DNA from: Escherichia coli
GTDB taxonomy: Bacteria > Pseudomonadota > Gammaproteobacteria > Enterobacterales > Enterobacteriaceae
Strand: one strand, 5' to 3'
Length of the DNA: 64,000 nucleotides
Assembly: GCF_030013595.1 (NCBI RefSeq)
Contig: NZ_CP122768.1
Every line of letters begins with the position of its first letter. Position 1 is the stretch's first letter. Positions 12,001-18,000 of the stretch are shown here, piece after piece. A program made the position numbers.

Positions 12001-15000
12001 TCCTGATTTTGCAAGTTCACAATCCCATGTTGTTACGATGAATAAGAAAGCGCCAAAACGCGAAAAGGAGATTTTGACACGGTGGCGCATTTTATCATGA
12101 AGTGAGGTGGAGAAATGCCAGTAGCGGCGCGTTTCCCGGTGGTATTTGCCACCGGGCAGAACCCGGCAGTAGGGGAACGCGCCGTCTGGTTTAGATCACC
12201 TCTGGGGCATTGCCGGTGATGGCTTTGACATCTGCCAGCAGATCGCCAAACTTGCCGTAGTTAACCTTAACGCCATCGTCGAGATCAATACTGATTCTCA
12301 TATCAGCATAGTGACGCAGGCGGTCGTCATAACTACGCAGTTCGCTGAATTTTTTGATCAGGCTGTCGCGTTCGCGTTTCAGACGTGTGGCTTCGCCGCC
12401 AGAAGCCTCATCAAGTTGATCGTTCAGGCGATCGATATTGGCCTGATAACGCGCCAGCAGCGGTACAACATATTCGGTACGCATTCTCGACAGCGTAGCG
12501 TCGTTATAGCGATGCAGATACACCAGGCACTCAAAGGCTTTCTCTTTGCCGGAGCTGAATAGCCAGTAGATTGGCCGCTTTTTATACATCTTCATATGAT
12601 CTTTCCAGAACTGGGTGGAAAGATAGCGGCGAATGGTCTCCAGCGCAGATTCGCCTTTTTTCGGCTTGATCGCGTATAAACAGAGACTTTCGGCGATAAA
12701 TTCGAGGTTTTCCTGCAGGTGCTCTTCACCCCAGACAGTGCGGACAAACTCTTTGACGCGAGAGGTGACGTCGTCCTCAAACCACTCGTCATCCATCAGC
12801 GGCAGGATACCGTCACTGTCGGCTGGGAAGGTTTTGTAGGCACCTTCGGCGACGAGATCGGCGAAGCCTTTGTTGCCTTCATGGGCGTAGACAAGGCCTT
12901 CGCGATCGAGGGAGTAACGGCCCATTTGGCAGCCGATGATGTAGGAAGTTAACTCAGAAAATATGTCACTACATTGACGGTGGTTTATTTCATCAAGATT
13001 ATTCTTATTTGGATATTTAAAGGTTGAATTCGAATCTAAAGCTATCTTTGAAATAGAAACATTCGGCTCTATCAAACCTAAAAGATTATATGTTTCTAAC
13101 AATTTTTGATTGTTTTTCGTTTCGAGTAATTGTGTTCTCACAACTCTATTCTGCCATGATTCTTTCATTTGATTGTAAGAATTTGATATTTTTTCATTTT
13201 TAAAATCTAATAAAGGATGATTTTTGAAAGACCACGAACTTTCATGTTCATCCCAATCTGATTTTGAAAGTTCTATGAGTTCGCGAACTTGAGATACAAT
13301 TTCCTGCTTATATTTTTCTATGACAGGCACTTTACCCACAGGGCCTTCATGGAAGTCTAGTGTCGGGGATAAAGCTTCAAGTATTTTTTCCGCTATTGGG
13401 CTATTCATTAATGCCAGCGCATAAAAAAGAGAATCTTGATTGTCACTAAAGCAAACAGAGCCTTTTGTTTCGAAAAGAAAACCCTCAGGGCTGTAGCGCA
13501 TGGATAAATATGATGATGAAATTGTAGACCAAGTAATTCCTTCCTTAAAATAATATCTTTCATTACGGATTACTGAGCCTTCGTAAGATTTCATTTCTGC
13601 ACCATTTTTATCCCAGTTCACAACCAAATCATTGTTTCCAAACCATTTTCTGTACGCCCCTCCTTTGTTGCAGGGAAACCATTTAGAAGCATTTTTGTCA
13701 TCCATGTATGAATTAAATTGGCTAAATTTTGTTAGGGAAATTTCACTCCATCTTCTCAAAAATAAATCATTATTACCTGTGGCAAATCCTTGTCTTGGTA
13801 CAGAGTAAACTTGAACTGGTGTACCCAATGTAAAGCAAGACAGTATTTTAGGGTTTACCCAATATGCAATAGGATAACCGGGTATTTTTTTGAAATCACT
13901 TGCAGTAGCATTTTTTAAACGCTCATTTTTTACAGGGAACTCTTCTGGGTATCCTTTTTCATTGATATCGTCATTTTCCGCATAGGAGAAGGAGCCCTTA
14001 TAAGATGGAGTATTCGTATTTCTAAATACAGTAGCATTTGTACCAAAAGCAATTTTCATAACTCCATTGCCCATATGCACCATAGTTTCGATTGTATAAT
14101 TAGTGAGGATATTTTTACGCATGTTTTCAAAACTGGAAAGGAACATCCAGGATTGCATTGTTACCATTGAGTTGAAACCAGCATTTTTCAACCAAAGGAA
14201 ACCACGCTCAATAAACATAGCAAACAAATCAGACTTACTATCTGGGAAATTATTTTTGGCAAACTCTTTCAGCTCACCATTCATTCCCTTACTGCCCATA
14301 TACGGCGGATTCGCCACCACTGCATCATATCGCTGCGCTAAAATCCACGCCTGCTGAATAAACGGAATAAACGCTTTCGCCGCCGCTTTCTGTTGGAAAT
14401 CGCCCTCCTGTTCCAGGCGATACAGCGCGTCCAGAAATACCTTCAGTTCCGCTTCTTCTTCCTGCGGTATCTGAATCAGTGAGCCCAGCGTTTTTGCATT
14501 CACAAAGCGTTTCAACGTGCGCATCAGCAGCTGATATTCTGCGCTGTCAGTTTGGGTTAACGCGGTATTTTCAGCAAACATATCCCCCATGCTGCCGGTT
14601 TGTACCTGCTGGTGGAAATTGAGCTGCTGCCAGAGTTTGGCGATATCCAGATGCAAACTTTCCTGCAAAGAAACAATATTCAGACGCACATCGGCTTTGT
14701 TGAATAAATCAGATTTTGGGTAAGTCTCCCCCGTAGCGGGTTGTGTTTTCAGGCAATACGCACGCTTTCAGGCATACCTGCTTTCGTCATTTTGTTCAGC
14801 GCTCGTACCAGGGCCATAGCCTCCGCAACCTGACCATCGTAGTCACGCAGCGTCAGTGAACCCCCGAACAGCTGTTTTACCCGGTACATCGCCGTTTCCG
14901 CTATCGAGCGACGGTTGTAATCTGTTGTCCATTTCCACCGCGCATTACTCCCGGTCATTCGCTGATTAGCCACTGCACGGTTACGGTCTGCATATTCACC

Positions 15001-18000
15001 GGGCCAGTAACCCGCACCTTTTCGGGGAGGGATAAGCGCGCTGATTTTCTTACGCCGCAGTTCATCGTGACATAGCCGGGTATCGTAAGCGCCATCGGCG
15101 GCGGCTGACCTGATTTTCCGGTGGGTTTGCCGGATTAACCCGGGGAAGGCCTCTGAGTCCGTAACGTTGTTCAGCGACAGGTCAGCGCAGATGATTTCAT
15201 GTGTTTTACTGTCAACGGCGAGATGCAGCTTACGCCAGATACGGCGGCGTTCCTGGCCATGCTTTTTGACTTTCCACTCGCCTTCACCGAAGACCTTCAG
15301 CCCGGTGGAATCAATTACCAGGTGTGCGATTTCACCCCGGGTGGGCGTTTTGAAACTGACATTAACCGACTTTGCCCGCCTGCTGACACAGCTGTAATCC
15401 GGGCAGCGTAGCGGAACGTTCATCAGAGAAAAAATGGAATCAATAAAGCCCTGCGCAGCCCGCAGGGTCAGCCGGAATACGCGTTTAATCACCAGAACGG
15501 TGGTGATGGCGAGATCAGAATAGCGCTGGGGCCTTCCTCGTGATGAAGGCGTTGCCGACTCATACCAGGCCTGAATCGCTTCATCATCCAGCCAGAAAGT
15601 GAGGGAGCCACGGTTGATGAGAGCTTTGTTGTAGGTGGACCAGTTGGTGATTCTGAACTTTTGCTTTGCCACGGAATGGTCTGTGTTGTCGGGAGGATGC
15701 GTGATCTGATCCTTCAACTCAGCAAAAGTTCGATTTATTCAACAAAGCCCCCCCAAACTGTCAGTCCATGCATCTTTCGTCCCTGGTGTGTTACATGAAC
15801 ACACGTCACTTTTATCTCCTGGCAGAATAAACAAATTTTACAGGTTTTTTCTTCCCCGGGATTCAGCCTCACTCCCTGCTTGCTCAGCAACCATCTGCTG
15901 TTGTTGCCGGGTATGACTGTCTGCATGGCATGCATTTGTTGTATCTGTGCTGACTGAATACGATAAAAATTTCTGGTTAATGACGATCGATATCATCTAT
16001 CGATTCGATCGATTTTATTCAATTGAGACTATCGCATGGCGGGTTTTAAAATGCACTGAGTACTGCTTGCAGCAACGGAGCAATAACGGAGATAATTGAA
16101 ATGAAAAAGGTTTTTGCTGTTTCAGTGGTGGCCGCAGCCTGTGTATTTGCAGCAAATGCAGGTGCTGAGGAAGGTAAAAGCGGTTTTTATCTGACCGGTA
16201 AAGCCGGTGCCTCTGTGGTGTCACTTTCAGACCAGCGTTTCCTGTCAGGAGATGAGGAAGAAACGTCAAAGTATAAAGGCGGCGATGACCATGATACGGT
16301 ATTCAGTGGCGGTATTGCGGCCGGTTATGATTTTTATCCGCAGTTCAGTATTCCGGTTCGTACAGAACTGGAGTTTTACGCGCGTGGAAAAGCTGATTCG
16401 AAGTATAACGTAGATAAAGACAGCTGGTCAGGTGGTTACTGGCGTGATGACCTGAAGAATGAAGTGTCAGTCAACACTCTGATGCTGAATACGTACTATG
16501 ACTTCCGGAACGACAGTGCATTCACACCATGGGTATCCGCAGGGATTGGTTACGCCAGAATTCATCAGAAAACAACTGGTATCAGTACTTGGGATTACGG
16601 GTACGGGTACAGTGGGCGTGAGTCGTTGTCACACTCAGACTCTGCTGACAACTTTGCATGGAGCCTTGGGGCTGGTGTCCGTTATGACGTAACCCCGGAT
16701 ATCGCTCTTGACCTCAGCTATCGCTATATTGATGCAGGTGACAGCAGTGTGAGTTACAAGGATGAGTGGGGCGATAAATATAAATCAGAGGTTGATGTTA
16801 AAAGTCATGACATCATGCTTGGTGTGACTTATAACTTCTGACGAAACTGCTCCTGAAAGATAATAATTACTTATCTTCTGTAATTAAAAGGAAACACCCT
16901 GCAGTAATTATACTGCAGGGTTGTCTGTTATCTGTTTTACAGATAATTTCTGATTTTTATTATCCTGTTCTCTTCATAATAATATTGTCGATATACTCCG
17001 ATGAATATCAGAAAACTGTTTTGTCCGGGCGACACACCCCGGATTTTATTGTTTTTATTCTTTTTTGTTATTTCTGTGATAATCACAATTGCATGCGGAT
17101 ACACTGAGAAGAATGCCACAGGAAATGTGCTGCTTCTGTTTCTCCTTCTTCTCCTTGCACACAGAAATACCCTCACATCCATTACAACGCTGTTATTTCT
17201 GTTCTGTTGTGCACTGTATGCGCCTGCGGGTATGACGTACGGTAAAATCAACAACAGTTTTATTGTCGCGTTGCTGCAGACCACGGCTGATGAGGCTGCA
17301 GAGTTTACCGGGATGATTCCTGTTTATCATTTTCTGGTCAGTGCCGCGATTCTGGTATTCATGGTGATTTTCTGGCGGACACACCACCGCGGTCACCGTA
17401 ACTGGCTGGCACTGCTGCTGTTCGTATTATGCTCTGTAAACAGCTGGCCGTTGCGGATGGTTAAAGGAATTGTTGTGGGAACAACTGACACATTGCGTGA
17501 AATGCAGCGTTATAAACAACTGAGTCAGCACGGGGCTGACAACTGGAAAATCCTGCCGGGAACACCGTTGTATGACTCGATTGTTATCGTTACTGGTGAG
17601 AGTGTGCGCAGGGATTATATGTCGGTATATGGCTATCCCGTGCCAACCACACCATGGCTGAATACGGCTCCCGGTTTATTTATTGACGGCTATACATCGG
17701 CAGCAGCCAGTACCGTACCTTCCCTGAGCCGGACACTGATTTATGACTATGAGCAGAACCCTGACTCCGGCAACAACGTGGTGGCGCTGGCAGCAAAAGC
17801 AGGATACAGCACATGGTGGATATCCAATCAGGGAAAACTGGGAGAGCATGACACACGCATCTCTGTTATTGCTTCTGATGCGGAGCATACCGTTTTCCTC
17901 AAGAAAGGCAGCTTCGCTTCCCGTAAAACGGATGACATGTTGTTGTTACAGGAAACAGAACGTGCGCTGGCGGATAAATCCTCGCCGAAGGTGATTTTCC

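What the first reader, a model, noticed from the sequence alone, without database searches (positions are those of the whole stretch)
14684..15758. IS903-group element without target-site duplication marks a deletion junction
The IS has perfect 18-bp terminal inverted repeats (GGCTTTGTTGAATAAATC) and is 1057 bp, but the 9 bp flanking each end differ (ACGCACATC left, CCCCCAAAC right). IS903-type elements normally make 9-bp duplications, so this looks like IS-mediated adjacent deletion or recombination between two copies, which would explain the loss of the 5' BREX genes.
Basis: partly seen in the sequence, partly recalled or inferred. Interest (0 to 1): 0.35.

Follow-up and report, generated by a model that had tools for sequence, protein, structure and literature searches.

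The report
IS903B deletion scar truncating BREX
A jumping gene (IS903B type) in an E. coli genomic island has deleted the DNA on one side of itself, removing the front half of a BREX anti-phage system; this is a well-known kind of event and is ordinary, though unusually well documented here.

Summary
A complete 1057-bp IS903B-type element lies at window 14693-15749, with perfect 18-bp ends and unrelated 9-bp flanks (ACGCACATC on the left, CCCCCAAAC on the right). The right flank is the native target, because genomes without the IS read ...CATAT-CCCCCAAAC-TGTCAG. The left flank is codon 382 of BREX-1 pglX. In E. coli 30COLEC the same IS sits at the same right junction, and a complete brxA-brxB-brxC-pglX-pglZ-brxL operon lies collinearly to its left; the window's breakpoint maps 11,163 bp away on that map. 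DNA-identical copies of this IS at three unrelated sites have perfect 9-bp duplications, so the missing duplication is real. At the omp site the same IS has seven different left junctions and never a duplication, which indicates repeated one-sided deletions from a fixed IS end. The IS is a hybrid of two IS903-group variants, so IS-IS recombination also occurred earlier at this site. The sequence cannot tell whether the window's deletion was a one-step adjacent deletion (favoured) or recombination with a second copy. The junction is found in at least seven other assemblies, so it is not an artefact. BREX here is a dead remnant. This is a known phenomenon of low novelty.

The parts
14693..15749 (-). 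Complete 1057-bp IS903B-type insertion sequence. It is a hybrid: canonical IS903B type over IS positions 1-756 and 'X-type' over positions 782-1057. The strand given is that of the transposase gene.
14693..14710 (+). Left 18-bp terminal inverted repeat, GGCTTTGTTGAATAAATC. This is the end that was joined to pglX, i.e. the novel junction.
   Evidence: Seven different sequences abut this end in copies of the identical IS.
15732..15749 (-). Right 18-bp terminal inverted repeat, at the ancestral, conserved junction.
14749..15717 (-). Intact DDE transposase ORF. The 307-aa product is identical to that of active copies elsewhere.
14717..14717 (+). T at IS position 25, a single-base change that arose after the deletion. 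Four assemblies with the same junction (L034, L035, L036, L039) have C here; L037 and L038 share the window's T.
14684..14692 (+). Left flank ACGCACATC, the breakpoint inside pglX (codon 382 of 1214). Intact pglX continues with ACGGGTAAAT... at this point.
15750..15758 (+). Right flank CCCCCAAAC, the native target sequence of the original insertion. It is present once in genomes that lack the IS.
12191..14692 (-). 3' remnant of BREX-1 pglX (residues 382-1214). The N-terminal 381 residues, including the start of the methyltransferase domain, are missing.
9417..12020 (-). pglZ, with an intact ORF.
7322..9406 (-). brxL, with an intact ORF.
16101..16841 (+). Outer-membrane beta-barrel protein gene, the conserved right-hand neighbour of the IS.
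17001..18500 (+). Phosphoethanolamine transferase gene, part of the conserved right flank.
18822..20087 (-). Tyrosine integrase of the island.
20285..20360 (-). tRNA-Phe, the island's attachment site. The pheV context is shown by yqgA and speC to the right.

Best explanation
An IS903B-type element had already inserted upstream of the outer-membrane-protein gene, near the integrase end of a tRNA-Phe genomic island. Its left end was later joined to a site inside pglX. This removed everything in between: the first 381 codons of pglX, then brxC, brxB and brxA, and by analogy with 30COLEC and PE15 a hypothetical gene, a BCCT transporter gene and IS1/DUF2254 debris. The loss is at least 6 kb and about 11 kb on the 30COLEC map. 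The IS, its right junction and one copy of the original target (CCCCCAAAC) stayed in place, so the two flanks no longer match. The favoured mechanism is a one-step 'adjacent deletion'. In that model the IS's own transposase performs an intramolecular replicative transposition into pglX, the chromosome keeps one IS copy, and the intervening DNA leaves as a non-replicating circle. The consequence is an inactive BREX-1 remnant (pglX', pglZ, brxL). Shown here: the deletion, its collinearity, the fixed right junction, and the intact IS terminus at the new junction. Inferred: that the event was one-step and transposase-driven.
For: The native empty site reads ...CATAT-CCCCCAAAC-TGTCAG in L003 and L004. 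The same IS at the same right junction occurs with a full BREX operon to its left in 30COLEC, HZ13 and B1. The window's left flank maps collinearly, on the same strand, 11,163 bp left of the IS on the 30COLEC island. The identical hybrid IS with the identical right junction has seven different left junctions: a DUF2254 remnant, pglX, glcA, the cadC side, a fimbrial gene, a papD-like gene and an AMP-binding gene. Each of these begins exactly at the terminal base of the IS. This points to repeated events acting at the IS end rather than random deletions. The deletion endpoints are nested. The 30COLEC endpoint lies inside the window's deleted interval. The endpoints of L010 and L011 (26.6 kb), E89 (glcA) and CP61 (yghS side) lie beyond it. 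The window-lineage IS is 100% identical to the 30COLEC copy in four assemblies, so it carries no trace of a second parental copy. None of 5,426 complete E. coli genomes has an IS at this pglX site, which would be the two-copy intermediate. Only one copy of this IS is listed on the 3.43-Mb contig of a lineage member. The same IS makes 9-bp duplications when it inserts normally. The literature reports that IS903 commonly makes adjacent deletions, linked to its cointegrate/replicative pathway (PMC11708052; PMC12670165).
Against: A one-step adjacent deletion and a two-step route (second copy, then homologous recombination) leave the same product, so the sequence cannot separate them. The IS is a recombinant of two IS903-group variants, and L012 is a second, independent recombinant. 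IS-IS recombination has therefore demonstrably occurred at this site. A two-copy intermediate would be short-lived, so its absence is weak evidence. No sampled genome combines the window's own BREX allele with an intact locus. The BREX side is 1.6% divergent from 30COLEC, whereas the IS and right flank are essentially identical, so the direct ancestor is unsampled. No copy at this site retains the original duplication, so the pristine insertion state is inferred and not observed.
Confidence: 0.55

Rival explanations
1. Two-step route. A second IS903-group copy first inserted into pglX in the same orientation, making a normal ACGCACATC duplication. RecA-dependent homologous recombination between that copy and the copy at the omp site then deleted the interval. 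This could have happened within the chromosome, or with incoming island DNA using the IS as the left-hand homology. The result is one IS carrying the left flank of one copy and the right flank of the other.
For: The IS is a clean single-crossover hybrid. It is canonical IS903B type at 103 of 103 informative sites over positions 1-756, and X-type at 23 of 23 informative sites over positions 782-1003. Complete X-type elements occupy the same site in five genomes. L012 is an independent hybrid with its crossover at positions 472-476. Recombination between IS903-group copies has therefore happened at this locus at least twice. This IS is active and can seed new copies. The sharp change in divergence at the IS, about 0% to the right and 1.6% to the left versus 30COLEC, fits recombination involving the IS.
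Against: The hybrid formed before the window's event, because the identical hybrid carries seven different left flanks. The window-lineage IS shows no second-parent signature. The only difference, T25, arose after the deletion, because the same junction exists with C25. No genome with an IS at this pglX site was found among 5,426 complete genomes. This route needs two events where one would do.
Confidence: 0.35
2. The IS did not cause the deletion. An unrelated deletion or double-strand break joined pglX to the omp region, and the IS inserted into the break without making a duplication. This is the mechanism proposed in PMC11708052 for some IS5 and IS481 events.
For: PMC11708052 reports new IS insertions without duplications that coincide with large rearrangements.
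Against: The IS was already at exactly this right junction in many relatives that did not suffer the deletion. The empty site shows that CCCCCAAAC is an ordinary target. An independent arrival at the same base and in the same orientation, coinciding with a break, is far less parsimonious.
Confidence: 0.03
3. There was a normal insertion and the duplication later decayed by point mutation, or the configuration is an assembly artefact.
For: None specific.
Against: The two 9-mers differ at 6 of 9 positions. The left flank continues as pglX coding sequence and not as the sequence found left of the empty site. The junction is identical in seven independent assemblies, including a 3.4-Mb contig.
Confidence: 0.01

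Closest known systems
IS903 / IS903B (IS5 family, IS903 group)
   Same: It is 1057 bp long and has the 18-bp terminal inverted repeats GGCTTTGTTGAATAAATC. It encodes a single 307-aa DDE transposase (PF13737 and PF01609). Identical copies elsewhere make 9-bp target duplications. NCBI annotates its transposase as 'IS5-like element IS903B family'.
   Different: This copy has no duplication. Its sequence is a hybrid. The left 756 bp or more match the common IS903B type (the L016 copy). The right 275 bp or so match an IS903-group variant that is about 10% divergent, 1056 bp long, and annotated only as 'IS5 family transposase'.
IS-mediated adjacent deletion (intramolecular replicative transposition), as described for IS903, IS1, IS26 and for IS150 in the LTEE
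   Same: The IS is retained intact and one flank is unchanged. The other flank comes from a collinear site further along the same molecule. There is no duplication. Deletions from the same IS end are nested and grow over time (PMC11708052).
   Different: The one-step nature cannot be demonstrated from an end-product sequence. Here it is inferred from comparative genomics and not observed experimentally.
Deletion by homologous recombination between two directly repeated IS copies
   Same: The product is a single IS with mismatched flanks. Hybrid IS sequences at this locus prove that such exchanges happen here.
   Different: For the window's own event, no second copy, no intermediate and no chimeric signature was found.
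BREX type 1 (brxA-brxB-brxC-pglX-pglZ-brxL), for example E. coli HS BREX
   Same: The gene order, the Pfam domains and 98-99% identity to annotated E. coli BREX-1 genes all match for pglX', pglZ and brxL.
   Different: Only the 3' 2.7 genes remain. brxA, brxB, brxC and PglX residues 1-381 are absent. From PMC6326788, the system should therefore neither methylate nor defend.

Membership tests
IS903 group of the IS5 family | Length of about 1057 bp with 18-bp terminal inverted repeats | tested here: met
   1057 bp with perfect 18-bp inverted repeats.
IS903 group of the IS5 family | A single DDE transposase of about 307 aa | tested here: met
   (PF13737 E=1.9e-40; PF01609 E=6.1e-33). One search shows the 307-aa product is shared with other copies.
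IS903 group of the IS5 family | 9-bp target-site duplication on insertion | tested here: met
   Not met by this copy. Met by DNA-identical copies at three other sites and by 3 of 4 copies of a related variant. The feature therefore holds for the element, and its absence here is secondary.
IS903 group of the IS5 family | High nucleotide identity to reference IS903B | tested here: inconclusive
   No ISfinder reference sequence was available. The element is 97.7% identical to a copy annotated as IS903B family (L016) and 95-99% identical to 4,325 plasmid copies. The right 275 bp derive from a more divergent variant.
IS-mediated adjacent deletion (one-step, intramolecular transposition) | The IS is retained complete and the new junction lies exactly at the IS terminus | tested here: met
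IS-mediated adjacent deletion (one-step, intramolecular transposition) | One flank is identical to the pre-deletion state, and the other is collinear DNA from further along the same molecule | tested here: met
   the right junction is shared, and the left flank maps on the same strand 11,163 bp away on the 30COLEC map.
IS-mediated adjacent deletion (one-step, intramolecular transposition) | No second IS copy is involved; the reciprocal product is a circle carrying a duplicated IS | not testable with these tools
   The circle is lost. Only indirect evidence is available: no two-copy intermediate in 5,426 genomes, and the IS is 100% identical to its sibling copy.
Deletion by recombination between two direct IS copies | Existence of a precursor with two copies, each with its own duplication | tested here: not met
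   Searches (no IS at this pglX site; no copy with CCCCCAAAC on its left) in 5,426 complete E. coli genomes. The absence of a transient state is weak evidence.
Deletion by recombination between two direct IS copies | A chimeric IS when the parental copies differ | tested here: inconclusive
   The IS is chimeric, but the chimera predates the window's deletion because seven left flanks share it. There is no additional chimerism specific to the window event.
BREX type 1 defence system | The complete six-gene set brxA, brxB, brxC, pglX, pglZ, brxL | tested here: not met
   only PglX 382-1214, PglZ and BrxL are encoded, and no BrxA, BrxB or BrxC is found anywhere in the window.

The most novel reading that the evidence does not exclude
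The IS903-group element at this one spot in tRNA-Phe (pheV/pheU) islands may act as a standing 'erosion engine'. In every one of more than 25 copies examined at this site or the site 25 bp away, the original duplication is gone. The identical hybrid IS carries at least seven different one-sided deletions. Some run through defence cargo (BREX, and McrBC in EC17CM2) and some run into chromosomal backbone (glcA, cadC). If the pristine insertion is never seen because leftward deletion is unusually fast or positively selected, for instance to shed costly defence systems, then this would be a specific and recurrent route of defence-island turnover and not a one-off scar.
Probability: 0.12. Interest if true: 0.45.

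Novelty: already known. Interest (0 to 1): 0.2.

Why it matters
For this genome, it means the BREX-1 locus should be annotated as an inactive remnant and not counted as a defence system. brxB, brxC and the PglX N-terminus are gone, and each of those genes is required for methylation and defence in E. coli BREX (PMC6326788). More generally, it is a clean natural example of a flank mismatch around an IS being used to locate and size a deletion. It also shows one IS end generating a nested series of deletions across strains. Neither point changes current understanding of IS903 or BREX.

Tried and rejected
(1) I tested whether T at IS position 25 was a footprint of a donor copy. T25 does occur in a rare 'Z-type' IS903 variant. 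However, the same pglX junction exists with C25 in four assemblies, so T25 arose after the deletion and the idea is rejected.

(2) I searched for the pristine insertion using a synthetic junction of empty-site sequence plus the IS left end. No genome covered it.

(3) I searched for the window's left junction in 5,426 complete E. coli genomes. None had it, so the source genome is not in that set. It was instead found through the exact truncated PglX product.

(4) The BrxL exact-protein look-up was uninformative because the protein is too widespread (11,985 blocks). The PglZ look-up found only members of the same lineage. The contigs that end inside pglX (L042-L045) proved to be plain assembly breaks and not further truncations.

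(5) I guessed an ATG-start product (799 aa) for the truncated PglX. It is not on record.

(6) Mapping all the left flanks onto the 30COLEC island placed only the window, L010/L011 and the 30COLEC group. The others carry different cargo, or lie at pheV rather than pheU, so a single complete nested map could not be built.

(7) Inversion was rejected as an explanation. Both flanks keep their original relative orientation and order, which an inversion between two IS copies would not give.
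Full report
**1. The observation**

Window 14693-15749 is a complete 1057-bp insertion sequence. Its 18-bp terminal inverted repeats are perfect: GGCTTTGTTGAATAAATC at 14693-14710 and its reverse complement at 15732-15749. These are the only two matches to the 18-mer in the 64 kb, even with three mismatches allowed, against 0.09 expected by chance. The element encodes an intact DDE transposase at 14749-15717 on the minus strand (PF13737 and PF01609). It matches thousands of enterobacterial plasmid copies annotated as IS903B-family at 95-99% identity. The two 9-mers differ at 6 of 9 positions.

**2. Does this IS normally make a 9-bp duplication?**

Yes, and this was tested directly.
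- The exact transposase protein was looked up across public assemblies. DNA-identical copies of this IS at three unrelated sites have perfect 9-bp duplications: L046 TTATACCGA, L047 AAAGAGAAT and L052 TGCTCTTGC.
- Three of four copies of a related variant also have them.
- PMC12670165 gives 1057 bp and a 9-bp duplication for IS903.

The missing duplication in the window is therefore a secondary loss and not a property of the element or a boundary error.

**3. What the flanks are**

The left flank is the 3' two-thirds of BREX-1 pglX (12191-14692, minus strand), followed by intact pglZ (9417-12020) and brxL (7322-9406). A tblastn search with an intact E. coli PglX (L002, 1214 aa) shows that the window encodes only residues 382-1214, at 99% identity. 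No BrxA, BrxB or BrxC is encoded anywhere in the window.

The right flank holds an outer-membrane beta-barrel protein gene, a phosphoethanolamine transferase gene, a tyrosine integrase and tRNA-Phe (20285-20360), followed by yqgA and speC. The IS therefore lies near the integrase end of a genomic island at pheV.

**4. Which junction is ancestral**

Genomes with the same right flank but no IS (L003 and L004) read ...GCATCATAT-CCCCCAAAC-TGTCAGTCC. CCCCCAAAC is therefore the native target sequence, and the right junction is the original one.

Seventeen of 5,426 complete E. coli genomes carry an IS903-group element in this spot. None shares the window's left junction.

In E. coli 30COLEC (L001), the IS sits at exactly the same right junction; window 14693 corresponds to L001 18944. 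The IS and the DNA to its right, up to window position 19422, differ only at two bases that are private to the window. To the left, 30COLEC has 50 bp, then IS1A, a DUF2254 remnant, a BCCT transporter gene, a hypothetical gene and a complete brxA-brxB-brxC-pglX-pglZ-brxL operon. The window's left flank maps collinearly, on the same strand, 11,163 bp from the IS on that map.

The window is therefore what results when the interval between the IS's left end and codon 382 of pglX is deleted. At least 6 kb is lost (the rest of pglX plus brxC, brxB and brxA). On the 30COLEC map the loss is about 11 kb.

**5. A recurrent, one-sided process**

The IS is a clean hybrid of two variants.
- Over positions 1-756 it matches the common IS903B type (the L016 copy) at 103 of 103 informative sites.
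- Over positions 782-1003 it matches a 1056-bp 'X-type' variant, about 10% divergent, at 23 of 23 informative sites.
- Complete X-type elements occupy the same site in five other genomes.

Because this hybrid has a unique crossover, its copies at the omp site share a common origin. Yet the identical hybrid, with the identical right junction, has seven different left junctions:
- a DUF2254 remnant (30COLEC, HZ13, B1; L054 has the same neighbouring genes, but its junction sequence was not extracted);
- pglX (the window lineage);
- glcA (E89, L050);
- the cadC side (L053);
- a fimbrial gene (L049);
- a papD-like gene (L055);
- an AMP-binding gene (L048).

Each of these junctions begins exactly at the IS's terminal base. 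The endpoints are nested. The 30COLEC endpoint lies inside the interval that the window has lost. L010 and L011 map 26.6 kb out. E89 and CP61 run past the island into glcA and the yghS-pitB-hyb backbone in the correct order.

This matches what is described for IS-anchored adjacent deletions. PMC11708052 states that adjacent deletions are common for IS903 and tied to its cointegrate (replicative) pathway. It also reports that deletions anchored on an IS in the long-term evolution experiment lacked duplications and often grew over time.

**6. Which sub-mechanism**

Both candidates leave one IS with mismatched flanks, so the end product does not distinguish them. The first candidate is a one-step intramolecular replicative transposition. 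The second is insertion of a second copy followed by homologous recombination.

Evidence for the one-step route:
- In four assemblies that carry the same junction, the IS is 100% identical to the 30COLEC copy.
- No two-copy intermediate exists among 5,426 genomes.
- Only one copy is listed on a 3.43-Mb contig of a lineage member.
- One event is more parsimonious than two.

Evidence for the two-step route:
- The hybrid IS, and a second independent hybrid (L012, crossover at 472-476), prove that IS-IS recombination has occurred at this very site.
- Divergence from 30COLEC jumps from about 0% to the right of the IS to 1.6% to its left.

I first suspected that the window's only private base in the IS, T at position 25, was a donor footprint, because T25 occurs in a rare variant. 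The same junction exists with C25, however, so T25 arose after the deletion. I put 0.55 on the one-step adjacent deletion and 0.35 on two-copy recombination.

**7. Reality and consequence**

The junction is present base for base in seven other assemblies or read sets checked directly. These include GCA_900448395.1 (3 mismatches in 22.5 kb), GCA_021646805.1, GCA_021649245.1, GCA_025624855.1, SRR14865750, ERR5386556 and ERR4899784. It is therefore an inherited feature of a lineage and not a misassembly.

In E. coli BREX, deleting brxB, brxC, brxX (pglX) or brxZ abolishes both methylation and defence, and PglX alone does not methylate (PMC6326788). The truncation also removes the start of the methyltransferase domain. 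In the full-length protein the Eco57I domain spans residues 348-589 and the MmeI_Mtase domain spans 306-528. The remnant should therefore be non-functional. This is an inference and was not tested.

**8. Novelty**

An IS that lacks its duplication and marks an adjacent deletion is textbook biology, and IS903 is one of the classic cases. Disruption of BREX by an IS is also not new; L027 shows an independent truncation by IS1.

The comparative picture is tidy but not surprising. One point is mildly unusual: no pristine insertion survives among more than 25 copies at this site or at the site 25 bp away.

Noticed in passing
window 14693-15749; L012, L005, L016: The IS is a single-crossover hybrid, with the crossover between IS positions 757 and 781. 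One parent is the common IS903B type. The other is a 1056-bp IS903-group variant, about 10% divergent, that NCBI labels only 'IS5 family transposase'. L012 (E. coli F163) is an independent hybrid of the same two parents, with its crossover at positions 472-476.
   Followed up: yes
L017, L018, L019 (about 3245-4300 in each): In three genomes an X-type element sits 25 bp further left, at junction AAAGCC|ACTTTGGTC. This is an independent insertion. It also lacks a duplication and has three different left flanks: ettA', IS1 and a FadR-like gene. The region appears to be a local hot spot.
   Followed up: partly
L014, L015, L016 (3244-4300 in each): These three genomes have an IS903-group element at exactly the same base and in the same orientation as the window. 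Their sequence is canonical-type, not X-type, up to IS position 1003. This could mean independent insertions at the same nucleotide, or a conversion or crossover within the last 54 bp. It is unexplained.
   Followed up: no
window 14717 and 17577: These two single-base differences are private to the window relative to 30COLEC. T at 14717 (IS position 25) is shared with SRR14865750 and ERR5386556 but not with GCA_900448395.1, which splits the deletion-bearing lineage into two sub-groups. The base at 17577 differs from all three relatives whose fetched sequence covers that position.
   Followed up: yes
window 14693-19422 versus 6939-12938, compared with L001: Similarity to 30COLEC is mosaic. The IS plus 3.7 kb to its right is essentially identical, while the brxL-pglZ-pglX side is 1.6% divergent and the pglX specificity region does not align at all. 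The boundary lies at the IS or within the deleted interval.
   Followed up: partly
L027 (GCA_964251255.1), about 6073-7216: This is an independent BREX-1 truncation in another E. coli. IS1 leaves only a 110-aa pglX remnant upstream of intact pglZ and brxL, with fim genes beyond the IS1.
   Followed up: no
window 14693-14749, minus strand: The transposase gene and pglX'-pglZ-brxL are on the same strand. The simple scan found no terminator-like site between the transposase stop codon and the IS end. Read-through could therefore transcribe the remnant, and BrxL expressed alone was reported to be toxic (PMC6326788). Expression was not tested.
   Followed up: no
window 18822-20360, compared with L001 and L004 and with L003 and L005: The same island family, with the same integrase end, sits at pheV in the window, 17MR471 and CP61 (yqgA and speC next door). 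In 30COLEC and PE15 it sits at pheU (dicD and dsbD next door).
   Followed up: partly
L020 (E. coli MB30), IS at 1501-2557: A Z-type IS903 copy inside a prophage tail-fibre-assembly gene also lacks a duplication (CTTCATGGC on one side, CCTCCAGTG on the other). This is probably another IS-associated rearrangement.
   Followed up: no
window 1-7300: The left part of the window is typical island cargo: an AlpA-like regulator, hha, an inovirus-Gp2-like gene and two zinc-ribbon genes. It is 99.5-99.9% identical to several E. coli chromosomes, so the island's far end lies beyond the window.
   Followed up: partly
window 15735-15935, minus strand: This 66-aa ORF starts in the right flank and runs into the IS end. 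It has no Pfam match and is probably spurious.
   Followed up: partly
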